From assembly GCF_041248615.1 (NCBI RefSeq), contig NZ_CP158426.1: DNA of 64,000 nt; one strand, written 5' to 3'. Source of the DNA: Escherichia coli (lineage in GTDB: Bacteria > Pseudomonadota > Gammaproteobacteria > Enterobacterales > Enterobacteriaceae). The notes below the pieces were generated by a model. That model searched no databases and was not told the origin of the DNA. It saw only the letters and a program-made list of their open reading frames with translations. The position numbers were made by a program, and so were the translations under genes. Shown here one piece after another: positions 19,982-31,356 of the stretch (positions are counted from its first letter, which is position 1; each line of letters starts with the position of its first letter).

Positions 19982-20017
19982 GATCGATTGTGACGATCGA
20001 TACCTGTTTTATCGATC
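19982..20017. promoter_or_regulatory. cluster of three GATC (Dam) sites upstream of agn43: phase-variation switch (Dam/OxyR)
   Basis: cGATCgattgtgacGATCgatacctgttttatcGATCg, about 220-250 bp upstream of the Ag43 start codon, matching the known agn43 regulatory region. Confidence 0.55.
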
Positions 20018-20136
20018 GTTTTATTCTATTAATAACAAGGCAGCCACGCAAGAGAAACAGGAGGAGTATGAGGGGTTTGTGTCATGTTTTCAGTTGGTTA
20101 ACGCAATGTAATCAGGCATTTCCTCTGGCAGAGTGT

Positions 20137-21009
20137 TCAGAAGAAAATCCAGTTCCATACCGCGCGGGCAACAGAGACCACGGTGTCACGGACGGCACGC
20201 AGAACCGTACGAGCCACAGAGGCAACACAGACGCTCTCCGCCGTGTCAAATATCCGGTCCACCGCACCGGTAAACTGTTCACGGGCCTGCCCCCGGACAG
20301 ATTCCGTGCACAGCTCGTCCTGCAGGCGGGTCATCAGGGGACTGGCGGCATGGTCGGGAAGTGCTGTCATGAGCGCACTGACCAGCGTATCCAGTTCCCA
20401 GCCGGTGCGGGCCGATACGGCCACAACCGGATGTACGGGCCGGAACAGCCGGAATACCGCATCTGTTTTCTCACGAATGTTCTGTTCCTGTGCGGGAGAA
20501 GGCTGAATACCTGCCATATCCCATTCATGGCAGGGCTCCGTTTTGTCGGCCTGCGTCACCACAAACAGCACCTGCTGATGTCCCCGGTGCAGGATGTGTC
20601 GCCAGAAATAGTCATCCACAGACAGGGCCCGGTCATCGGCTTTAATCAGCCACAGTACCAGGTCAAGTTCAGGCAGAATGTCACGGTACAGGGCTTCATA
20701 CTCTGCATCCCTGTCCCGGCTCTCGCCCACCCCGGGCAGGTCAGTGATAACCATGCTGTGACCATGGCCACTCAGACGGAAGCGCTGCACTTCCCGGGTG
20801 CCGGCGTGAACATCACTGACCGGGGTGACCTCCCCCTGAAACAGTGCATTACAGAGTGAGGATTTACCGGCCCCGCTTTTTCCCATAATGCCAATCACGG
20901 GTTCGTGGCTGGTGAGTTTGCGCAGATGTTCCAGGATGTGACGGGAAAGTGAGTAAGGCAGGGAGGAGAGCGGTTTTTCAATTGCCTCAATGGCATCAGA
21001 CGGATTCAT
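20137..21009 (-). CDS. YeeP/YkfA-family GTPase
   Basis: P-loop GKSGAGKSS; start trimmed to internal Met, alternative start at 21072; position upstream of agn43 as in CP4-44. Confidence 0.75.
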   Translation of the reverse strand: MNPSDAIEAIEKPLSSLPYSLSRHILEHLRKLTSHEPVIGIMGKSGAGKSSLCNALFQGEVTPVSDVHAGTREVQRFRLSGHGHSMVITDLPGVGESRDRDAEYEALYRDILPELDLVLWLIKADDRALSVDDYFWRHILHRGHQQVLFVVTQADKTEPCHEWDMAGIQPSPAQEQNIREKTDAVFRLFRPVHPVVAVSARTGWELDTLVSALMTALPDHAASPLMTRLQDELCTESVRGQAREQFTGAVDRIFDTAESVCVASVARTVLRAVRDTVVSVARAVWNWIFF

Positions 21010-21238
21010 ACATGTATTCCCGGTGAAAAAAGACAAAACCCCGCGCACCGGAAAGGTGGCGGGGGGATTCACGGAGATAATATCTGCCTGAAATTATTTG
21101 GAATGCAGGTATATGTGGCTGATTTGTATCAGCTAATGAGTACAGGTCTGAATCTAATCTGACAGTCCGCTCTGTGCCAGGAGCGGACATTGTTTTCCAA
21201 CTATTACCTAAGCCTGCGAACCATCTCATCTTCACCCC

Positions 21239-22126
21239 TTAAATTCTCAATGTATCGATAACCGCTCGTAGGGCGGGTGACACATTGCGGTGCGGATAAT
21301 AGATATATGAACCCTCCAGGCGTTGGCTGTAGCATTGCAAAACTCTGATTAGCGCCCCCTGTTCTATATCATCAGACACTAATTCCTCCGGAACATAAGC
21401 CAGCCCCAGACCTAGCCTTGCGGCTTTGGCTTCCATATAACTGTCAGCAAAGGCCCATTGTCCCTGAGGCTGATGGGTGATCTTTTTACCGTCCTGATTG
21501 AGTTCCCAGGCATACAGACTGCCGTCGCCGAACTGGTAAGCGATGCAGGGATGACCTACTAAATCGGTGGGGGTTTGTGGAAATCCGTAGCGCTGAAAGT
21601 GCCCGGGCGTGCCGACAACAGCCATCTCCATATCGGGCGAAATGCGCACCGCAACCATACCGCTATCCACTTCCGAGCCCAGACGTATACCGGCATCGAA
21701 GCGCTCAGTAATAATATCGACAAACCGGCTTTCGCTGATGAGCTCCAGCCGAATATCCGGGTATCGTTGTTTAAACACCGCCAGCTTCGGCAGCAGCACT
21801 TTATCAATGGCGTGCTGGCTCGCATTAATTCGGACCGTACCCGATGGTGTATGGCGATAATGGGCCAGCGTGGCAAGCCCCATATCTAAGGCGTCAAATC
21901 CAGATTCGACGTTTCGATAGAGTAACTCGCCGGCATGGGTGAGCGATAACTTGCGCGTGGTGCGTACCAGAAGCTGCACGCCCAGTCGCTCTTCCAGCTC
22001 GCGCACTGCACGGCTAATTCCTGACTGCGCCAGGCCAAGCCTCTGCGCGGCGGCGGTAAAACTCCCTTCTCGCACGACCTGCATAAACAGATAGAGATCG
22101 TTATAGTTTTCCCGTTTCGCCATCAT
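21239..22126 (-). CDS. LysR-family transcriptional regulator
   Basis: N-terminal HTH (FTAAAQRLGLAQSGISRAVRELE) and LysR substrate-binding domain; divergent from the hydrolase/MFS pair. Confidence 0.85.
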   Translation of the reverse strand: MMAKRENYNDLYLFMQVVREGSFTAAAQRLGLAQSGISRAVRELEERLGVQLLVRTTRKLSLTHAGELLYRNVESGFDALDMGLATLAHYRHTPSGTVRINASQHAIDKVLLPKLAVFKQRYPDIRLELISESRFVDIITERFDAGIRLGSEVDSGMVAVRISPDMEMAVVGTPGHFQRYGFPQTPTDLVGHPCIAYQFGDGSLYAWELNQDGKKITHQPQGQWAFADSYMEAKAARLGLGLAYVPEELVSDDIEQGALIRVLQCYSQRLEGSYIYYPHRNVSPALRAVIDTLRI

Positions 22127-22293
22127 CCTTCCCCTGCTGCATCACAATTCAGAACAATATGTTATTAATCTTAGCATTTTTTACCCTCTAATTAGCACTA
22201 TTAATGCTAACTATAATGTGCGCGTTGCAACAAAGCACAGCAGTGTTATCCGTATGAAACCAGTATCTGGCACATTTTATGAGGGGGATTTTG

Positions 22294-23430
22294 ATGACTG
22301 CTTTCACCCAAAAATTGACAGCCGCGATATCCACCATGCTGTTATGCGTATCATTAAGTGGAGTCACAAATATGAGTTACGCTGATACAACCAATCCGAA
22401 CGCGCCCGTTTCGCAGGTCGAGAAATGGGATAAAACTTTTGCTGAGAGCACGAAAGTTGATCACCGTAAGGTGACCTTTCCGAACCGGTACGGGATCACC
22501 TTAGTCGGGGATCTCTATATACCGAAGGATCGTGGCGATCGCAAGATGGCAGCAATTGCTGTTAGTGGCCCCTTCGGGGCGGTGAAAGAGCAATCCAGTG
22601 GCCTGTATGCGCAGACGCTGGCTGAACGGGGGTTTGTCACTCTGGCTTTTGACCCTTCATACACGGGGGAAAGCGGCGGCTACCCGCGAAACGTCGCATC
22701 TCCGGATATCAACACCGAGGATTTCAGCGCGGCGGTTGATTTCTTAGGCCTGCAAAAAGAGGTGGATCGCAACCGTATCGGGTTGCTCGGCATCTGCGGA
22801 TGGGGTGGCATGGCCTTAAACGACGCCGCGATGGACACACGTGTCAAGGCGGTGGCGAGCAGCGTGATGTATGACATGAGCCGTGCAATGGGGCATGGCG
22901 TGGGCGATGGCAAAGACCGCTATACCACTGCCGATCGTCGTGCCGTATTGCAGTATTTGAACATGCAGCGCTGGAAGGATGCTGAAAATGGCGCTTTCGC
23001 GCCAGGCGGGCATGATATTTACGTTGATGAGAAGGGCAACGTCACCGCTTCCGATCGTATTTTACCGGAAACTTTGCCAGCGAATTCTAATCCGGTATTG
23101 AAAGAGTTCTTTGATTATTACCGCATGCCGCGTGGTTTCCATGCGCGTTCGGTCAACTCAACCAGTGCCTGGAATGCAACCATGCCGCTGTCATTTATGA
23201 ATATGCCGCTGCTGAGTTACGCTAATGAAGTTACTATCCCTACACTCATCGTGACCGGTGAAAAAGCCCATTCACGCTATTTTGCTGAAGATGCCTTTAA
23301 GGCAATCGGCAGCAAAGAGAAAGAGTTAGTGATTGTCCCCGAGGCAAACCATGTTGATCTGTACGACAACGTTGCGGGTAAGATCCCATTTGCCAAATTT
23401 GAGCAATTTTTCAAGGCAAACTTAAGATAA
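22294..23430 (+). CDS. secreted alpha/beta-hydrolase-fold protein
   Basis: Signal-peptide-like N-terminus and hydrolase-like core; start chosen at ATG preceded by GAGGGGG SD, alternative at 22279. Confidence 0.65.
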   Translation: MTAFTQKLTAAISTMLLCVSLSGVTNMSYADTTNPNAPVSQVEKWDKTFAESTKVDHRKVTFPNRYGITLVGDLYIPKDRGDRKMAAIAVSGPFGAVKEQSSGLYAQTLAERGFVTLAFDPSYTGESGGYPRNVASPDINTEDFSAAVDFLGLQKEVDRNRIGLLGICGWGGMALNDAAMDTRVKAVASSVMYDMSRAMGHGVGDGKDRYTTADRRAVLQYLNMQRWKDAENGAFAPGGHDIYVDEKGNVTASDRILPETLPANSNPVLKEFFDYYRMPRGFHARSVNSTSAWNATMPLSFMNMPLLSYANEVTIPTLIVTGEKAHSRYFAEDAFKAIGSKEKELVIVPEANHVDLYDNVAGKIPFAKFEQFFKANLR

Positions 23431-23606
23431 CCCGAAAGGTTTACCAGGCCACCTGTCGTAAACGGGTGGCTTTTAACTGCCTGGTGTGATGCAGAATATG
23501 CCGCATCTCCCTATATTCTCACCCAACTATTATGTCGTTATTCCCTGAATAACTTCTGACCCGATTGCGCTTGAATCTGGCTGGTTCGATATTAAGGGGG
23601 CTAATA

Positions 23607-24800
23607 ATGTCCACTGTAAGTCTCAAACAATTATACGGAAAAACGCATGCATACTGGAGCGGCGTATTCGCCATGACGCTTTGCGTGTTTGTGCTGATCG
23701 CTTCTGAGTTTATGCCAGTCAGCCTGCTTACGCTCATTGCCCATGATTTGCACGTTACCGAAGGGCTGGCAGGGCAAGGAATTGCTGTCTCTGGTGCGCT
23801 GGCGGTGCTTACCAGTCTGACTATCTCCCGTATTACCGGAGACCTGAATCGAAAATATCTTCTGCTGGGGCTGACGGCCTTAATGGCCATATCGGGAATA
23901 GTTATCACCATAGCACCTGACTATCCGGTTTATATGCTGGGGAGGGCCCTGATTGGTATCGTCATTGGAGGGTTCTGGTCAATGTCGGCTGCAACCGCCA
24001 TTCGGCTCGTGCCGAAGCAGCATGTCCCCCGCGCACTGGCAATTTTTAACGGCGGAAACGCACTGGCCACCGTTGTGGCAGCGCCACTTGGTAGCTATCT
24101 GGGGACAACCATCGGCTGGCGTGGGGCCTTTTTATGTCTGGTCCCCCTTGCGATAGCTGCGTTCATCTGGCAATGGGTCAGTCTGCCTCCGATGGAAAGT
24201 GATAAAACACAAAAGCTACAGAGATCTGTGCTTCGCCTGTTCAGCGTTGCCATCGTACCAACGGGACTGCTGGCCTGCGGACTCTTCTTTATGGGACAGT
24301 TTGCTTTATTTACCTACGTGCGCCCCTTTCTGGAGAGCGTCACCAGAGTGGGACCTTCTGATCTTTCTCTGATTTTGCTCGCAATAGGTGTAGCAGGTTT
24401 TGTCGGCACAATGATCGTCTCAACATTCCTGAACACCATATTTTATAAGACCTTAATAATGATCCCGTTGCTTATGGCAGCGATTACCGGTGCGTTACTG
24501 CTGGTCGGACACCATATCTGGGCTGTTGCCGTTTTACTCAGCCTGTGGGGGCTACTTGCGACAGCTGCGCCAACGGGGTGGTGGACATGGATAGCACGCG
24601 CGTTACCCGAAGATGCAGAGACGGGGGGAGGCCTCATGGTTGCAGTGATTCAGTTATCTATTGCACTTGGTTCAACGGCTGGAGGTCTGGTATTCGACAG
24701 TCTGGGATGGAGAAGTGCTTTTGGTTTAAGTGGTTTGTTACTTCTGGGAGCGGTAGCGATGACATGTGCCACATCCCGTCAAAACAGGAAGGCGCAGTAG
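23607..24800 (+). CDS. MFS transporter
   Basis: About 12 predicted hydrophobic segments; start at ATG preceded by AAGGGGG SD. Confidence 0.8.
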   Translation: MSTVSLKQLYGKTHAYWSGVFAMTLCVFVLIASEFMPVSLLTLIAHDLHVTEGLAGQGIAVSGALAVLTSLTISRITGDLNRKYLLLGLTALMAISGIVITIAPDYPVYMLGRALIGIVIGGFWSMSAATAIRLVPKQHVPRALAIFNGGNALATVVAAPLGSYLGTTIGWRGAFLCLVPLAIAAFIWQWVSLPPMESDKTQKLQRSVLRLFSVAIVPTGLLACGLFFMGQFALFTYVRPFLESVTRVGPSDLSLILLAIGVAGFVGTMIVSTFLNTIFYKTLIMIPLLMAAITGALLLVGHHIWAVAVLLSLWGLLATAAPTGWWTWIARALPEDAETGGGLMVAVIQLSIALGSTAGGLVFDSLGWRSAFGLSGLLLLGAVAMTCATSRQNRKAQ

Positions 24801-26559
24801 CGCAATCCTTTTATTTCTGGCGTACGCTCTTTAAGGCATCCGGCTGAGAGGCTAATGATCACTCCTCGCTCACAACGGACCTTCAGCTCAGCCGCTCCGG
24901 CCGCTTCATGCCATGAATGTACGCAGCCAGTCAGAATATTAAGGTGCGGATTTCAGTTCACTTGTCAGCCCAGTGATACAGGACAGTAATGACCAACAAT
25001 TTGGTATTGATACAACAAGTTGCGGCCCCGGTTCGTGGGGGAGATGAAACGACGGTAGCTGAAGTTACTGAAATGAAGAATTCAGAGAGACTGAATGATA
25101 TGCCTCACCTTTAGTGAATAGTGTAAAAACGGGAGACTCTCACCCGAGATTATCCACTCATGCTCAATGTATAATTTTCGTGCCCCTCACAGGTAAGAGC
25201 CGGATGCATTCGTTGTGTACGTTGCAGAATTGGTAACCGGGGACCCTGCAGTCTTTAACTCCGAGTCTTGTGCTGCTCATTTGCCACAAAATCCTGGTAC
25301 GCCAGCTCAATCATTTCATTCAACAGTTTTTTTGGGGGGCACCACGACTTCGGGCAATACTTTCAGGCTGTTTGTGGATTTTTCCGGACAGTTTCAGCGG
25401 AACGGAACCATCAGCACGTTCATCACGCCTTTTTTGTTGCTCCCGGGCACTTTTCAGTTCATCCACAATATAGCTGCTCTTCTCGCATTTTTGCCGATTT
25501 TAAAAATGCGAACAAAACATCCGTACATGATGTACAGATTAAACTGCCAGGGACTGGTGTCAGAAAGCCTCCGGTTAGCCTGCTCTTTCCGGAATGTGCC
25601 GGTTATGAAAAACCGGAAATTCAGTCTCTGTTGTAAGATGTACCCTCTGATACTACGTTTTCGTTTTCTCTGTGTATTTAACTCACTGTATTTATTGTCT
25701 TTTTAAGCCTGACTGATATTCTCCGGTCATAGTGTGCCGGATAGACATCCCGTAACCTTCTCATTTTTATATAAAAATACCTGCACTGTCTTCAGCGCAT
25801 CTGTCTCCTTTAAGTAAAAAATGTTTTCACGTATTGCTGTAAATTCATTTTAAATCAGTATGTTATCCTGATATTGCTGTCTCCTGGTTTGATGCGTAAT
25901 CGTTCTGCCTTTCTGGATGATTCTGGTGCTTCCGGGTGCATTCTCCTCTGCACATGCAACAGTTCGTCATCGCCACGTGCCCAAAAAGCATATAAAAACG
26001 AATCGAATCTGATCGTTTTTTCAATCGTTTTTCACAGGAATTTCGTAGGGTGTTCTCCGCTATAGCCTCCATATTTGCTGTCTTTTTCTTCATAAATCGT
26101 ATGCAATATAACCAGTCTGTCAAGACATCTTCCCTGCTGTTGAGGTGACGATCTCATTTCTGGTCTTTTCCGGGAGAGAGACGGTCAGATGAGCGAGCCG
26201 GATTTACTGCCAGAGGTACTCCCCGCGGCAGAAAATAGTGCTCCTGTTTCCGCAATCCGGGATCGGCAACGTCCCATGGTTAATGCCACTTGCAGCGTCA
26301 GGCACTGCAGGTTTACGTCGTGATCTGATTTCTTCTGCACTTATCCCGATCACGGAAGTTCCCCCTGCGCAGACATCGGTTCCTGCCGACATCTCACAAT
26401 ACCGCCAGGCTGTCATGCAGTAACACCCGCAATGCGGTCTGCGGTTTTAAGCGCACTCTCCTGTTTTCAGTGCACCGATAAGCGTTATAGAAAGTCTGGG
26501 GTGAGTTACTGAATGTCTGTTAAGTGGTGCCGTGGGTGGAGACTGCTTACTTTTCCACA

Positions 26560-27260
26560 GCAACTGCAGTCATTCAGGATGCTCAGGAGAGAATATGTCA
26601 ACGCCACGAGCCGGGCCATTTTCATGCCAGCCAGTATATTTTCTACACTGATGCAGTCTGATTTTCACCATTCCATCCTCACTGATTGTCGTGTTGTTTT
26701 GGGTCATCACCACAGCTTTCCGTTTCTCTTTTAATCGGTAACGCTCTCCTTTGATATTCAGCGTGGTTGAGTGATGCAGCAGTCAATCCAGGAGCGCTGT
26801 TGTCCGGCAACCACCATATCAACTTCTTCCCGGCGTGCCGGCGCTGGTATCCAGGCCGGGTTTCGAAGCGAAGCGTTCCTGACGGACTCATTGACATCCG
26901 GGCCGGATGTAGTCATGCAGCATGGAACGTCCGCCCGTATACACTGACGGCGTCCGGCCGTGTACAGAGATCGGTAAAATTCGTTACTACAACTGTTCCT
27001 GAATATCTGACGAAGAAACATTCAGCAATAACATCCGGCCGTGTACATCTCTTTTGCGGTGCAGGGAGCACTGTCGCCATGTACTTATTGTCACCAGGGT
27101 GAGGCATGTACCGCAGCATGCCAGCTCAGCAATGACAGGATGCCCTTAAGACATCCGTCATGGCTCAGTATGATGACGACGAACACGCTCTGCAGGTGAG
27201 CATGCAGGGCCGGGGGTATCATCATTTCCGTATTTTGCCGCACCTTCCGGAAACAACCGG
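26560..27260 (-). pseudogene. decayed coding region with frameshifts downstream of the 205-aa gene
   Basis: Several short minus-strand ORFs in different frames read like pieces of one protein (e.g. ...LNIKGERYRLKEKRKAVVMTQNNTTISEDGMVKIRLHQCRKYTGWHENGPARGVDIFSPEHPE*); no intact ORF. Confidence 0.3.
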
Positions 27261-27262
27261 CA

Positions 27263-27880
27263 TCAGTTACGGTTACCGTCAACCGTTGTGCGGTATGCCA
27301 GGAGCACGTACTGATCCATCAGATCCGTCAGTGCTGCGTTCTGCTTCTGACGGTCGATGATCCATTCCCCCAGCTCTTTTTCTGATTTCCGTTTCAGGTT
27401 CTCCGTCCAGTCGTCAAGGCTGTTTCCGGTCATTAAATCAAGCCAGCAAAGCCAGACCAGTTTGAGGCGCAACTCCGTGCCACCAAACTGACGGAAGAGG
27501 CTGATCAGTTTATTTGCCAGAGAACGCTGCCTCAGACGTTCACATTCAGACAGCAGAATCCCTTCCAGCATCGGATGATGAACCAGCAGATGTTCGCTGG
27601 TGCATAAGTTCACCACCAGATCATCATCCAGGGGCGGCGTGGCCCGTTTGTCAGAGCCATAAATCAGCCGGTGCAGACTCCGGGGTACGATGGCAATCTT
27701 CGGTTTTTCACCATTGAATGACACCCACCCGGGCGTCAGATTATGGAAGTAGTGGATATTCGGATGACACACGCCCCAGGATACGGCGTGCCGGGTGAAG
27801 CCGGTCAGCCATTTCTGGTAGCTTTCGTGGAGCAGCTCGTAACGGGTCTGATACTGTGGTTTCATTTTCATATTCCTCAC
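27263..27880 (-). CDS. hypothetical protein downstream of alpA
   Basis: 205-aa ORF co-directional with and 79 bp downstream of alpA; no family recognised. Confidence 0.55.
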   Translation of the reverse strand: MRNMKMKPQYQTRYELLHESYQKWLTGFTRHAVSWGVCHPNIHYFHNLTPGWVSFNGEKPKIAIVPRSLHRLIYGSDKRATPPLDDDLVVNLCTSEHLLVHHPMLEGILLSECERLRQRSLANKLISLFRQFGGTELRLKLVWLCWLDLMTGNSLDDWTENLKRKSEKELGEWIIDRQKQNAALTDLMDQYVLLAYRTTVDGNRN

Positions 27881-27958
27881 GGGGGATAACAGGCAGCAGA
27901 GTGCCGCCGGCAGGCCGGAGATTGCGTCTGCTGTGGGCGAAGGGCCAGTGGTTAAAAA

Positions 27959-28165
27959 TTACGGACGGGACTGTGCAATACGCGCCTGCAGCCAGGCTTC
28001 CACTTCACTTTTCAGCCAGCGGGAGCTGCGGCCGAGTTTGATGGGAGCCGGAAAGGCCCCATCCTTGATGAGCTTGTAAAACCACTTATCGGTCAGGCCG
28101 GTCAGCTGAGTGATAAACGTCATATCGACCATCTGGTCATCCATCAGCGAAACTGGGGTGGTCAT
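27959..28165 (-). CDS. alpA: AlpA-family phage transcriptional regulator (MerR-like HTH)
   Basis: 68-aa ORF; ...MTFITQLTGLTDKWFYKLIKDGAFPAPIKLGRSSRWLKSEVEAWL is the AlpA/Prophage_CP4-57_regulator pattern. Confidence 0.7.
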   Translation of the reverse strand: MTTPVSLMDDQMVDMTFITQLTGLTDKWFYKLIKDGAFPAPIKLGRSSRWLKSEVEAWLQARIAQSRP

Positions 28166-28548
28166 AAAAATCTTCTCCGGATGTTGTTAATCTCAGCCGG
28201 CGTTGATGATGAAAACAACGCACCACCTTCACCGGCATAACAACCGGGGAGAAACGTAAAAAATCAGTAGGGGAATATTCCTGCCAGGAGAGAAACTGTT
28301 GTGTACAGGCAATACAGGTTGTCTGTTTTGTCAGTGAAGCCGGTATAAACGGAAGATGATTTTGTGTTGCCGGAATATGGGATGGCGTTTTGCCGTGACA
28401 GGATCAGTATTTTCAGTGATGATTATTACTGTGCAGGGGAGTACCGGAGATAAACCACGCCCTGTACCTGCCAGAGCGGAGGTTTGTATTGACTGAACGG
28501 AAGATAAAGCGAGGTAAACACTGTTGCGGTGAGCGGAGAAGACTGAGA

Positions 28549-29340
28549 TTATTCTCTGTAATTACAAACAACAGTGATCTGATCCGGTTTTTTTACCGTT
28601 ACGGGTTTCCGGGGATCAATTTTATAGACCGGGGTAATGACCACGCCGGAATTTATGGAGAAAAGCGGGATCCAGCAATAAACGTCCGGATATTTCTGTG
28701 TCTCCGGAATACCTTTTGTGCCAGAGGCCATCAGATCTTTAACGCTCACGAAAAATGACTTCCGCAGATCAAAAAAGTACTCGTTATATATCACATCCTT
28801 TGCCAGCAGGATGACTGCATTACCAACAGCCGATTTTACAGGTGTTTCATCAGGTGGATTATCGTGATTGTATATTGTTCTTTCTATATAAATAAAACAG
28901 GCATATTTCGTCTTCTCCCCGGATAGTTGCATCTGGTATTCGCAAATGTCTTTGATATACCGACTTTCAACCCTTCCAATCATCTTATCCCGGCGATAGT
29001 GTCTTTTATGTTTCAGCGCGTACAGAACACCATTTGAACTGTCAAACTCCAGGACACTTCTGGTGAAAAGTTTGTTTTCCCAGATCTCCAGACAATACTT
29101 CTCTGCACTGACGACATTGCGTTTGTGGGGAAGATTCCGTTGATACACTCCATTTAATAAGCGTGACTGCAGTTCGCCTGCAAGTTGATAGTAACAGTTA
29201 ATGTCATTAAGGACAGGTGCTGTGGCGTTGAGTAATGTGTTGATTACCTTAGAGCGCGAAAGTTTGTGGGTATGACAGTACTCATCCACAATTCGCAGTG
29301 TCTCATCACTGGTCATATTGAAAGTTATACGTGTTGTCAT
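28549..29340 (-). CDS. hypothetical protein: N-terminal ribbon-helix-helix-like segment fused to a domain of unknown function
   Basis: 263-aa ORF in AT-rich DNA; N-terminus MTTRITFNMTSDETLRIVDEYCHTHKLSRSKVINTLL has a strand-helix-helix pattern; first gene of a co-directional string (263-aa gene, alpA, 205-aa gene). Confidence 0.55.
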   Translation of the reverse strand: MTTRITFNMTSDETLRIVDEYCHTHKLSRSKVINTLLNATAPVLNDINCYYQLAGELQSRLLNGVYQRNLPHKRNVVSAEKYCLEIWENKLFTRSVLEFDSSNGVLYALKHKRHYRRDKMIGRVESRYIKDICEYQMQLSGEKTKYACFIYIERTIYNHDNPPDETPVKSAVGNAVILLAKDVIYNEYFFDLRKSFFVSVKDLMASGTKGIPETQKYPDVYCWIPLFSINSGVVITPVYKIDPRKPVTVKKPDQITVVCNYRE

Positions 29341-29670
29341 GATGAAGTTTTCTGTTAATCATACTGGTTGATATGCATAACATTTCATAAAAAATACTGT
29401 TAATTCATATAATTGATTTTTTGACTGGTTTTATCCTCGTGTGGTGGAAAGCAGTATTACTGCCACTGTAGTCAGCATAAATCTATCACACAGAACCACC
29501 GAAAATGAAGCATTGCTCAGGGGGAAGCTGCCACTCGTATGAGTTCTCTGAACCATGATAACCAGTATTTTTCGTTTTGGGTGATTTGTTTATCGTTACA
29601 GCTACATACAGTTCATGTACCATTAAAAAATAATAAAGGTTAATTAGTATTATTTATAGAAGTATGTTTA

Positions 29671-29748
29671 TGTAATTCTACCGTGTAAATGAACCCTGTA
29701 ATTCTACCTTGTAAATACACCTTGTAACCAAGTCCTGTAGAAGTCTGT
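29671..29748. repeat. six tandem 13-bp iteron-like direct repeats (consensus TGTAAnTnnACCy)
   Basis: tgtaattctaccg / tgtaaatgaaccc / tgtaattctacct / tgtaaatacacct / tgtaaccaagtcc / tgtagaagtctgtc; tgtaattctacc occurs twice exactly. Confidence 0.5.
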
Positions 29749-30722
29749 CTCATAGAAGTATCTGTGCAGTGATATTCTCTGTAGTAGTACTTGTAACTCT
29801 GTTCTTAACTCTCTCTTCAGTAATGTAGTCCCGCAACACCTGAATATAAATCTGTAATGTTCACACACTGACTGTAACGTGCTTTGTTAAGTAATGTCTG
29901 CTATTTTTTTTCTGTTATTTTTCCTGTTGTTTTCTGTATTTTGTTGTATGGTGTAATAACTATTCTGAACCCGTCATCACCTTTATAGCTAAGAGTATGA
30001 CTTCGCCAGTGTTGATACTGTGGATAACGGTGATTAAGGAATTACTGTTAATGATCTGTTCCTGCAGCTCACCTGATGAGTTTTGGTAGTAATACGTAAA
30101 AGAGTATGCCTCATGTCATTAAAAAGTCTTCCGGAGTGTTGTTTAACCCTGTACCTCTGTTACTCATGTAGTACGTTGCGGAAAGCTACGTTAATTGTAA
30201 TATCTGGTTATGGCGTTATGCCTTCAGTATTAAAAACATCTTTTACCGGAGAAACTGGGAAGTGGAAAGGCTTTCGGGATAACGTCAGGCCATTATGACG
30301 ATATTACGTTAATCACAGTACAAGATAACGAGAGGGTAATGGAATTTTAAACCAGAGTAGTTCCACTGTTGTTCACTGGAAAAAGTGATTTCCCACGCGC
30401 GTTATAAGCTTACTCCAGAGGAGATGGAAGCCTTCAACTCTGCGGTCGATCACCGGCTGGCAGAACTGACCATGAACAAACTTTACGATCGTGTTCCCGC
30501 TTCAGTCTGGAAATATGTTACCTGATAAATGTTTCTGATGAAGTACAGTCGTCACAATGACATCACTTCAGATATTATCTGCGCTGTGATTGACTGTCAC
30601 GTATGCCGTTCTCTGTATGGTTCTGATACCCGGGTGTGGTCCCACTTTCTCTGTGGCGCCCGGGGAGTTGTGAACCTGCACGTCTTCGTGTGATAACGTT
30701 TTCTTCAAAAATTACGCCAGCG

Positions 30723-30754
30723 CTTCTTCCTGTGTTACAGAACACGAGGAAGAA
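30723..30754 (+). promoter_or_regulatory. hairpin sequestering the ribosome-binding site of the 30757 gene
   Basis: cttcttcctgtgtt-acag-aacacgaggaagaa: about 13-bp stem with one bulge; the right arm contains the GGAAG SD ending 3 nt before the ATG at 30757. Confidence 0.4.
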
Positions 30755-30756
30755 AC

Positions 30757-31356
30757 ATGAAGACTTACAACACCAATCCCGGTTACGAAATGGATCCCCA
30801 GCTCCTGACACACTTTAACCAGCATCTGGATTCATTATTCGGGGTATATTCGAAACTGTTACCGTTCAGAATGGATTTTGCTTACCGAAAAAACACCCTC
30901 AGCTACAGATGTGCCTGCAGGTACGCCATGTGCGCGGAGATACTGCGACTGATTAACGAAGTGGGAGAGAAACTGGTCGGGTATGCCTGGGTAATGGAAT
31001 ATACGGAACGTAAAGGGCTTCACATTCATTTTGTGGGCTATCTGAACGGTCAGAGCCACAGGAGTTCGTATCTGGTATCCAGATTGATGGGAGATATCTG
31101 GAGGCGGGTTACCGGGGGGGATGGTTACTACCACTGGTGCCGGTTTAATAAAAATTATCCGGTAAACATTAACCACGTCATTCACTATTCAGATCACAAA
31201 GCGGTGAATGCCTTACGCTATGCCATCAGCTACCTGGCCAAACGAGAACAGAAAGAATGTGGCATCATCCTGAAATGCAGCGGGCTTCCTGAAAAAAGTA
31301 ATCGGGGTCGACCGCGACTGGGCAGCCCCCTGCCGGAGACTTATTCTCTGGTGTAA
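30757..31356 (+). CDS. Gp2-like protein (inovirus Gp2 / YagK-YfjJ family, putative replication-initiator-like)
   Basis: 199-aa ORF; sequence pattern and context (integrase/alpA island) resemble YagK/YfjJ; assignment from memory. Confidence 0.5.
   Translation: MKTYNTNPGYEMDPQLLTHFNQHLDSLFGVYSKLLPFRMDFAYRKNTLSYRCACRYAMCAEILRLINEVGEKLVGYAWVMEYTERKGLHIHFVGYLNGQSHRSSYLVSRLMGDIWRRVTGGDGYYHWCRFNKNYPVNINHVIHYSDHKAVNALRYAISYLAKREQKECGIILKCSGLPEKSNRGRPRLGSPLPETYSLV

What the first reader, a model, noticed from the sequence alone, without database searches (positions are those of the whole stretch)
24850..26550. Gene-poor, apparently decayed stretch within the island
About 1.7 kb with only short, overlapping, unconvincing ORFs on both strands, for example a minus-strand stop-to-stop frame at about 25290-25470 reading ...SYIVDELKSAREQQKRRDERADGSVPLKLSGKIHKQPESIARSRGAPQKNC. 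Likely remnants of eroded genes, possibly hiding small RNAs.
Basis: seen in the sequence. Interest (0 to 1): 0.25.

Follow-up and report, generated by a model that had tools for sequence, protein, structure and literature searches.

The report
Decayed gene stump plus its orphaned upstream region
This gene-poor stretch of an E. coli genomic island is ordinary: a small stump of one deleted and frameshifted island gene, that gene's naturally gene-free upstream control region, and (just outside the reported range) an old insertion-sequence relic.

Summary
From 24801 to 27262 there is no credible gene. RefSeq annotation of identical E. coli genomes lists only two pseudogene fragments there.

About 210 bp (25255-25466, minus strand) is a real gene remnant. 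It is the last 70 codons of a ~381-codon uncharacterised island gene, which I call g390. Elsewhere g390 is intact and sits just upstream of the YeeP-like GTPase gene. Here a 933-nt in-frame deletion removed codons 2-312, and a -1 slip in a C6A7 run cut the rest to 48 codons.

Most of the remainder (25467-26595) is not eroded coding DNA. It has no annotated or conserved gene in all ~2,090 complete E. coli genomes that carry it, including those with g390 intact. It holds:
- a conserved sigma-70-like promoter (26123-26096, minus strand);
- a phased CTACG/A-tract element also found upstream of g390 homologues in five other Enterobacterales lineages;
- two terminator-like hairpins.

An IS21-family relic follows at 26596-27047.

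No known RNA family, stable RNA structure or conserved small ORF was found. Conservation does not exceed synonymous-site levels. The finding is ordinary and of low interest.

The parts
24801..24861 (.). 3' flank of the cargo MFS-transporter gene; specific to this island variant
   Evidence: The MFS CDS ends at 24800. Homology with the UTI89 and 536 islands starts only at 24862-24866.
24862..25254 (-). Non-coding 3' flank of the g390 gene, shared with UTI89/536-type islands; cargo junction at its left end
   Evidence: blastn matches window 24866-25463 to UTI89 L003 4217-4819 at 91.7% and window 24862 onward to 536. Nothing is annotated under it in more than 1,100 genomes. It is not a GTPase remnant.
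25255..25466 (-). Stump of g390, a ~381-codon uncharacterised island gene: start codon GTG (25466-25464) fused in frame to the last 70 codons, then frameshifted; the open frame left is 48 codons (25320-25466)
   Evidence: PGAP pseudogene. tblastn to the UTI89 390-aa protein gives aa 300-363 and 365-390 in two frames, E 1e-28. The GTG start is inferred from the family alignment.
25455..25469 (-). Deletion junction ATT GTG G|AT GAA CTG: 933 nt (311 codons) missing relative to UTI89, in frame
25327..25339 (-). C6A7 homopolymer run carrying the -1 frameshift (UTI89 has TCCTCCC-A7)
   Evidence: Twenty-nine loci with the deletion show at least 8 different truncations at this run.
25511..25539 (-). 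Terminator-like hairpin T2 plus U-tract, about 45 nt upstream of the GTG start
   Evidence: Pattern scan. This is the only alifold window with z of -3.7/-4.3. The outer stem TCTG/CNGA and the U-tract are kept in the divergent E. coli clade.
25772..25799 (-). Terminator-like hairpin T1 plus U-tract
   Evidence: Pattern scan. 90.5% of cells are paired across 9 distinct sequences, with one-sided changes only and no compensatory pair.
26010..26051 (-). Phased element ACCCTACG-AAATT-CCTGTG-AAAAA-CGATTG-AAAAAA-CGATCA: hexamers separated by A-tracts at an 11-bp period
   Evidence: It is the top shared 17-mer in an unbiased search of 7 upstream regions from different genera (observed 79 against null 74.1+-1.2, 0 of 100 shuffles). 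It lies at -133 to -178 from the start codon in Klebsiella, Salmonella, Citrobacter, Kosakonia and one unassigned contig, and at -585 here.
26096..26123 (-). Sigma-70-like promoter TTGACA-16 nt-TACGAT pointing toward g390
   Evidence: Best promoter match in 24700-27400, 10 of 12. Both hexamers are invariant in all 18 representatives, including the clade that is only 56-60% identical overall.
26124..26595 (.). Variable, mosaic spacer with no consistent ORF
   Evidence: Mean pairwise identity is 0.84 in the main clade, with a 43-nt indel and a 2-nt indel. It cannot be aligned to the divergent clade. Candidate ORFs change frame between copies.
26596..27047 (-). IS21-family relic (outside the reported range, same gene-poor stretch): right end GGCGTTGACA (26596-26607), IstB aa 214-264 (26803-26651), IstA aa 85-121 (26941-26835; DNA match to ISEc62 istA over 26941-26799), three TGTACACGGCCGGA-type terminal repeats (26930-27047)
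   Evidence: tblastn to ISEc62 IstB E 6e-17 and IstA E 3e-4. DNA match to ISEc62 and comparison of the ends. Repeats. PGAP 'AAA family ATPase' fragment.

Best explanation
The stretch is a decayed joint in the backbone of a CP4-type genomic island, with a tRNA-Phe gene at 43752-43827. In related islands across Enterobacterales, a ~350-390-codon gene of unknown function (here called g390) opens the rightward module g390 -> YeeP-like GTPase -> DUF932/Ag43/antitoxin-toxin genes. It is always preceded by at least 500 bp with no gene.

Shown: in this window g390 has been destroyed. A 933-nt in-frame deletion removed codons 2-312, and a -1 slip in a C6A7 run truncated the remaining 70 codons to 48.

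Inferred: that upstream region holds a promoter, a phased CTACG/A-tract protein-binding or bent-DNA element, and a ~620-nt leader with two terminator-like hairpins. An IS21-family relic lies beyond it.

Inferred, not shown: the promoter can probably still fire. It would produce an orphan leader transcript that runs into the stump and then antisense toward the convergent MFS gene. The stretch has no remaining protein-coding function and is drifting neutrally.
For: - Identity of the stump: tblastn E 1e-28 in two frames; blastn breakpoints; in-frame junction and deletion size; PGAP pseudogene call.
- Ongoing decay: at least 8 different truncations at the homopolymer among 29 deletion-bearing loci.
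- g390 is a real gene family under constraint: conserved domains in the alignment. There are 63 representatives at E<=0.001, including full-length homologues from Klebsiella, Salmonella, Citrobacter, Kosakonia, Yersinia and Pectobacterium. In every sampled locus where the downstream gene could be classified it lies directly upstream of the GTPase gene (in the short contig L095 the downstream gene is cut and unclassified).
- The upstream region is gene-free: 'none' annotated in about 2,090 of 5,426 complete genomes, at 86-100% identity, including genomes with intact g390. No long homologous ORF in about 90 loci. The 86-aa ORF is called in only 12 small clusters, mostly with partial coverage. 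No Pfam or PHROG hits.
- Promoter, hairpins and phased element.
- IS21 relic.
Against: - There are no expression data, so the promoter and terminators are consensus matches. Their counts in the region do not exceed shuffled expectation (2 against 3.4 promoters; 3 against 2.9 terminators).
- Conservation of the core (mean pairwise 0.949) lies between third-codon-position identity of the neighbouring genes (0.896 and 0.964). Against the divergent clade, the best block (77-87%) equals four-fold-site identity (77-89%). Purifying selection on the non-coding part is therefore not demonstrated.
- The cross-genus motif is significant but modest (z about 4), and the Pectobacterium match is doubtful.
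- About 430 nt of the E. coli leader have no counterpart in other genera and could themselves be an old, unrecognisable relic.
Confidence: 0.85

Rival explanations
1. The interval from the promoter (26123) to hairpin T1 (about 25775) or T2 (about 25515) is a stand-alone non-coding RNA gene of about 315 or 575 nt that acts in trans. That would explain why it is kept almost unchanged after its neighbouring gene was deleted.
For: - The promoter hexamers are invariant and both hairpin/U-tract elements are retained in the divergent clade.
- The leader is 99-100% identical among deletion-bearing genomes.
- No ORF is conserved.
Against: - No Rfam match at E<=1.
- Single-sequence folds give z = -1.0, +1.05 and -1.8.
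- Structure conservation index is below 0.6 in all windows, and there is no compensatory pair.
- Conservation is no higher than at synonymous sites.
- The published UTI89 sRNAs PapR and C271 do not map here.
- Retention after a recent deletion needs no selection.
Confidence: 0.12
2. The interval hides an unannotated small protein gene. The candidate is the 86-codon minus-strand ORF 25863-26123 (or its internal ATG at about 26072, MEAIAENTLRNS...).
For: - The ORF is open in the window, in L009 and partly in L013.
- The first ~45 residues are about 60% identical between the clades (my count).
Against: - The frame breaks after about 34-52 codons in the divergent clade. Substitutions show no third-position bias (my count on alignment A2).
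- There is no Shine-Dalgarno sequence.
- Gene callers report it in only 12 small clusters, with 30-99% coverage, although the DNA is in thousands of genomes.
- No Pfam or PHROG family.
Confidence: 0.03
3. Everything between the stump and the IS relic is functionless filler even in intact islands. On this reading the promoter-like site, the hairpins and the phased element are chance or compositional features of AT-rich horizontally acquired DNA.
For: - Promoter and terminator counts are at shuffled expectation.
- Conservation is indistinguishable from neutral.
- The history is mosaic and recombinant.
- IS elements insert repeatedly just beyond it: IS100, IS66, IS150, ISEc62, and an IS4 relic.
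Against: - The same CTACG-N6-CTAYG element sits at -133 to -178 from the start codon in five other Enterobacterales lineages whose upstream regions are otherwise unalignable.
- The 12 promoter-hexamer positions are invariant in a clade with 56-60% overall identity.
- A first gene of an operon needs a promoter somewhere in this interval.
Confidence: 0.15

Closest known systems
Pseudogene remnants and IS relics in CP4-type (P4-integrase, tRNA-associated) genomic islands of E. coli, e.g. the CP4-57/CP4-44/CP4-6 cryptic prophages of K-12 and the related island in strain 536
   Same: - A tRNA-Phe gene lies in the window at 43752-43827.
- The backbone is the same: AlpA-type HTH gene, YagK/YfjJ, zinc-ribbon genes, YeeP/YfjP-like GTPase, Ag43, DUF932, antirestriction, RadC-like, CbeA/CbtA (K-12 comparison).
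- There are many frameshifted or truncated genes and nested IS fragments.
   Different: K-12's CP4-57 has no g390 homologue and no counterpart of this leader. It has rnlAB directly upstream of yfjP. YfjI, YfjJ, YfjH and YfjM give no significant tblastn match to the window region.
IS21-family insertion sequences (ISEc62, IS100)
   Same: - An IstB C-terminus (67% identity to ISEc62 IstB aa 214-264) and an IstA fragment.
- Right end GGCGTTGACA, as in ISEc62 (GGCGTTGACAG).
- Reiterated TGT-starting terminal repeats.
   Different: About 1.4 kb of internal sequence and most of istA are missing. The relic is fixed in all main-clade copies of the island. The divergent clade has an IS4 relic in its place.
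Long 5' leaders with intrinsic terminators (transcription attenuation or antitermination control)
   Same: A promoter, then a ~620-nt untranslated leader, then two hairpin/U-tract elements before the first gene of an operon.
   Different: No alternative antiterminator structure, RNA-binding motif or riboswitch family was found. The P. aeruginosa antiterminator called AlpA is a larger 21Q-like protein that binds a GGGACG element between the -35 and -10 hexamers (PMC9371919). It shares only its name with the 68-aa Phage_AlpA protein of this island.
Ribbon-helix-helix DNA-binding domains (e.g. the RHH of MatP)
   Same: The g390 C-terminus has a beta-strand-like VPLKLS, then two helices. A profile of the family aligns to the MatP RHH segment. 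The AlphaFold model shows an extended segment plus helices 339-352 and 356-380 with pLDDT around 90.

Membership tests
g390 family (uncharacterised first gene of the rightward module of CP4-type islands) | Sequence homology to family members | tested here: met
   tblastn of the UTI89 390-aa protein hits window 25499-25338 and 25335-25258, E 1e-28. Only the last ~70 of ~381 codons are present.
g390 family (uncharacterised first gene of the rightward module of CP4-type islands) | Intact reading frame | tested here: not met
   A 933-nt deletion plus a -1 frameshift. PGAP flags it 'frameshifted; incomplete'. It is a pseudogene, not a functional member.
g390 family (uncharacterised first gene of the rightward module of CP4-type islands) | Position directly upstream of the YeeP-like GTPase gene | tested here: not met
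   In the window a LysR/hydrolase/MFS cargo module (21239-24800) separates the stump from the GTPase gene. The two genes are adjacent in O104:H4, ATCC 11775, L009, L013 and the other genera sampled.
IS21 family insertion sequence | IstA and IstB homology | tested here: met
   ISEc62 IstB aa 214-264, E 6e-17. IstA aa 85-121, E 3e-4.
IS21 family insertion sequence | Terminal inverted repeat and reiterated terminal repeats | tested here: met
   Right end GTGGCGTTGACA at 26596-26607, against ISEc62 TTGGCGTTGACAG. Three copies of TCCGGCCGTGTACA (reverse complement TGTACACGGCCGGA) at 26930-27047. The left-end assignment is inferred.
IS21 family insertion sequence | Complete istA-istB genes (a functional element) | tested here: not met
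   Only about 50 codons of each remain. It is a relic.
Known bacterial RNA families (Rfam 15) | Covariance-model match at or near the gathering score | tested here: not met
   Scanning 20000-32000 at E<=1 gives only CRISPR-DR13 at 27.9 bits (gathering 37), E 0.68, inside the IstB relic.
Structured non-coding RNA (generic) | Thermodynamic stability or covariation above background | tested here: inconclusive
   Single-sequence z = -1.0, +1.05, -1.8. Alifold SCI is below 0.6; only the T2 window reaches z -3.7/-4.3. T1 is 90.5% paired with no double changes. Sequence diversity is too low for a real test.
Sigma-70 promoter | -35/-10 hexamers with 16-18 nt spacing | tested here: met
   TTGACA-16-TACGAT, 10 of 12, invariant in 18 representatives. 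Activity is not testable with these tools.
Intrinsic terminator | GC-containing hairpin followed by a U-tract | tested here: met
   T1 25799-25782 and T2 25539-25519. The count in the region is not above shuffled expectation. Function is not testable here.
Ribbon-helix-helix domain (g390 C-terminus) | Significant match to an RHH family or structure | tested here: inconclusive

The most novel reading that the evidence does not exclude
The ORF-free interval is a dedicated control region of CP4-type islands. A constitutive promoter drives a ~620-nt leader (or a ~315-nt RNA ending at T1). Read-through of two terminators sets expression of the rightward module (g390, YeeP-like GTPase, Ag43, toxin-antitoxin). 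The phased CTACG/A-tract array, conserved across Enterobacterales, is the operator. It would be bound by g390's own C-terminal RHH-like domain or by the island's Hha/H-NS-type silencers. In this window the switch has lost its gene but may still make RNA.
Probability: 0.15. Interest if true: 0.4.

Novelty: already known. Interest (0 to 1): 0.15.

Why it matters
It matters little for this window. The stretch is a pseudogene stump, a native intergenic region and an IS relic, and RefSeq annotation already flags both gene fragments.

Two by-products may be useful to people who study E. coli islands:
- g390 is a widespread but uncharacterised backbone gene. It is always the first gene before the YeeP-like GTPase gene, has no Pfam family and has no close structural relative.
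- Its upstream region carries a phased CTACG/A-tract element conserved across at least six sampled lineages (four named genera plus one unassigned contig). This is a concrete handle for asking how the Ag43/toxin-antitoxin module of these islands is switched on.

Tried and rejected
1. Is the stretch a remnant of K-12 CP4-57 genes? YfjI, YfjJ, YfjH and YfjM give no significant tblastn hit.
2. Is 24866-25257 a GTPase-gene remnant? No hit. A 39-bp match next to an 'adhesin' pseudogene in strain EC476 is uninformative junk.
3. Is there a hidden long gene? blastx of 24801-27262 against all stop-to-stop ORFs of at least 90 aa from about 90 related loci found only g390, IstB and shadow ORFs.
4. Is the 86-aa ORF a real gene? 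Rejected.
5. Known RNA families: none.
6. The UTI89 sRNAs PapR and C271 (PMC4546395): their probe and primer sequences do not match the window or the homologous UTI89, 536 and O104 loci.
7. AlpA-dependent antitermination as the mechanism for the two leader hairpins: rejected. The P. aeruginosa AlpA is a larger 21Q-like protein with a different binding element (PMC7969949, PMC9371919). It is unrelated to the 68-aa Phage_AlpA protein here.
8. Purifying selection on the non-coding core: not demonstrable.
9. Wider distribution of the leader: exact-pattern scans found 0 hits in viral contigs and 0 in 100,044 species-representative genomes (two patterns). Metagenomes gave 72 true hits, all from the same E. 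coli lineages.
11. Inverted repeat 25578-25599 / 27240-27261 (22 nt, 82%): treated as chance and not pursued.

Full report
**Where we are.** The window is E. coli chromosome. Region 24700-27400 is 100% identical to several complete genomes. The surroundings are a CP4-type island:
- group-2 capsule genes, then DUF4942, CbtA/CbeA, a RadC-like gene, antirestriction, DUF932, Ag43 and a YeeP-like GTPase gene;
- a LysR/alpha-beta-hydrolase/MFS cargo module;
- the gene-poor stretch;
- a 205-aa hypothetical gene (27263-27880, minus strand), a 68-aa AlpA-type HTH gene (27959-28165, minus strand), Hha, Gp2-like/YagK and zinc-ribbon genes.

A tRNA-Phe gene lies at 43752-43827.

**Observation.** The ORF list shows only short overlapping ORFs, and ten of them have no Pfam match. 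PGAP annotates only two pseudogene fragments between 24801 and 27262. One is a frameshifted, incomplete 'hypothetical protein' at 25255-25466(-). The other is an incomplete 'AAA family ATPase' at 26648-26782(-). GC falls to 0.41-0.47.

**The eroded gene.** In UTI89, O104:H4, ATCC 11775 and many other strains, the homologous place holds an intact 383-390-aa hypothetical gene. I call it g390.
- tblastn places its residues 300-363 and 365-390 on window 25499-25338 and 25335-25258, in two frames (E 1e-28).
- blastn shows the window matching UTI89 on both sides of a missing block.
- The family alignment indicates that the true start is the GTG giving MGKELDD/MEKELDD. That GTG is retained at 25466-25464.
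- The junction reads ATT GTG G|AT GAA CTG. Exactly 933 nt (311 codons) are missing, in frame, leaving start codon + 70 C-terminal codons.
- A -1 change in a C/A run (C6A7 here, TCCTCCC-A7 in UTI89) then shifts the frame. The open frame is 48 codons, and the last 26 codons are readable in another frame.
- Among 29 loci with the same deletion, the stump ends in at least 8 different ways at this run. That is the signature of unconstrained decay, although some variants may be assembly errors.
- Roughly 330 of about 2,180 genomes that match this part carry the deletion form.

**What g390 is.**
- Close relatives (60% identity or more) are all E. coli.
- A full HMMER profile search finds full-length homologues at 17-32% identity in Klebsiella oxytoca, Salmonella, Citrobacter, Kosakonia, Yersinia and Pectobacterium. 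All are named 'hypothetical'.
- No Pfam, NCBIfam or PHROG family matches.
- The C-terminal ~45 residues look like a ribbon-helix-helix. The only profile hit in the PDB is the RHH segment of MatP, but at E 0.42. This remains a lead, not a result.
- In every sampled locus where the downstream gene could be classified, g390 lies directly upstream of the YeeP-like GTPase gene. In the short contig L095 the downstream gene is cut and unclassified. In the window the cargo module has been inserted between them.

**The larger part is not eroded coding DNA.**
- Region 25700-26560 occurs in 2,091 of 5,426 complete E. coli genomes with 'none' annotated under it. Region 25474-26600 occurs in 2,092. These include genomes where g390 and the 200-aa gene are intact.
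- blastx against all long stop-to-stop ORFs of about 90 related loci finds nothing but g390, IstB and shadow ORFs.
- The best internal ORF (86 codons, 25863-26123, minus strand) breaks frame in the divergent clade. It shows no third-position bias by my count on alignment A2. Gene callers report it in only 12 small clusters.
- In other genera the g390 homologue is likewise preceded by 497-1,143 bp with no called gene. There, that region is the divergent intergenic region facing the alpA/zinc-ribbon/YagK module.
- In E. coli the alpA/200-aa block has the same orientation as g390. IS debris lies between them: IS21 relic, IS100, IS66, IS150, ISEc62, and an IS4 relic in the divergent clade.

**Features in the upstream region (all on the minus strand).**
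1. Promoter-like site: TTGACA-16-TACGAT at 26123-26096, the best promoter match in the region. It is invariant in all 18 non-redundant copies, including the L013/L046 clade that is only 56-60% identical over the interval.
2. Phased element: at 26051-26010 there is an array of hexamers separated by A-tracts at 11-bp spacing (ACCCTACG AAATT CCTGTG AAAAA CGATTG AAAAAA CGATCA).
   - An unbiased seed search over seven upstream regions from different genera picked this word as the best shared 17-mer (79 against 74.1+-1.2 in shuffles, 0 of 100).
   - It sits at -133 to -178 from the start codon in Klebsiella, Salmonella, Citrobacter, Kosakonia and one unassigned contig. It sits at -585 in E. coli, so the E. 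coli leader has about 430 extra nucleotides.
   - Phased A/T tracts suggest bent DNA or a protein-binding array. The island encodes an Hha-family protein, and g390 may have an RHH-like domain. No binding was tested.
3. Two hairpin/U-tract elements: T1 at 25799-25782 and T2 at 25539-25519. Both are retained in the divergent clade through one-sided changes only.

**Tests for function beyond these motifs were negative or inconclusive.**
- Rfam finds nothing.
- Folding energies are ordinary. Alignment folding gives SCI below 0.6, with only the T2 window standing out.
- Conservation of the 25621-26149 core (0.949) lies between third-position identity of the 200-aa gene (0.896) and of g390 (0.964) within the main clade.
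- Against the divergent clade, the best block (26149-26001, 77-87%) matches four-fold-site identity (77-89%), and the rest is lower. The apparent 'hyper-conservation' seen in the first six-sequence alignment is therefore explained by shared ancestry and mosaic recombination.
- Promoter and terminator counts do not exceed shuffled expectation.

**IS21 relic.** Just past the reported end there are:
- IstB residues 214-264 at 26803-26651;
- IstA residues 85-121 at 26941-26835, with a DNA match to ISEc62 istA over 26941-26799;
- a right end GGCGTTGACA at 26596-26607 that matches the ISEc62 end;
- three TGTACACGGCCGGA-type repeats at 26930-27047 that fit IS21-type reiterated ends (inferred).

**Verdict.** The stretch is an ordinary decayed joint of a genomic island. 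About 210 bp is a true gene stump, about 1.1 kb is the gene's native ORF-free control region that has been orphaned by the deletion, and an old IS relic follows. RefSeq already marks both gene fragments. A small RNA is neither shown nor excluded. The most concrete new lead is the phased CTACG/A-tract element conserved upstream of g390 homologues across Enterobacterales.

Noticed in passing
window 25455-25469; locus L005 (E. coli 536) 5555-5767: The 933-nt deletion is exactly in frame and keeps the native GTG start. In 536-type copies without the later frameshift, a 70-codon mini-ORF remains that consists only of the RHH-like C-terminal domain. PGAP calls it 'incomplete' but not frameshifted.
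   Followed up: partly
window 27263-28165 compared with loci L093, L096, L097, L098, L099: In Klebsiella, Salmonella, Citrobacter, Kosakonia and Pectobacterium, the alpA-containing module is divergent from g390. In E. coli, alpA and the 200-aa gene point the same way as g390, so the block was rearranged. IS relics lie at the joint.
   Followed up: partly
window 26930-27047: Three direct copies of TCCGGCCGTGTACA (one at 86% identity), spaced 23 and 81 nt apart. Read on the minus strand they start with TGT, like the reiterated terminal repeats of IS21-family elements. They probably mark the left end of the relic.
   Followed up: partly
window 27160-27360 (+): PGAP annotates a 66-aa 'hypothetical protein' (WP_011076196.1) that overlaps the 3' end of the 205-aa minus-strand gene by about 100 nt. 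It is probably a spurious call.
   Followed up: no
window 26639-26668 (-): A sub-threshold Rfam hit to CRISPR-DR13 (27.9 bits, gathering 37, E 0.68) lies inside the IstB relic. It is a single copy with no array, so it is treated as chance.
   Followed up: partly
window 28549-29340 (-): The 263-aa hypothetical protein upstream of alpA has no Pfam or PHROG family. Its first ~30 residues give a weak NCBIfam hit to the aCcr1 cell-cycle regulator family (E 0.0025, 17.7 bits against a cutoff of 60).
   Followed up: no
window 21239-24861: A LysR regulator, alpha/beta-hydrolase and MFS-transporter cargo module is inserted between the YeeP-like GTPase gene and the g390 stump. At the same junction (24862) strain 536 carries a DUF2971 gene and a 196-aa gene, and UTI89 carries a TonB-receptor/ABC-transporter module. 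This junction is a cargo hot spot.
   Followed up: partly
window 25578-25599 and 27240-27261: A 22-nt inverted repeat (82% complementary), with arms 1,640 nt apart, brackets the leader, spacer and IS relic. The second arm abuts the stop of the 205-aa gene. It was not distinguished from chance.
   Followed up: no
window 43752-43827 (-): A tRNA-Phe (GAA) gene lies in the window; island ends and integrase were not examined. No tRNA appears at the corresponding place in the annotation table of the otherwise identical genome NZ_CP069441, so the window and that genome may differ there.
   Followed up: no
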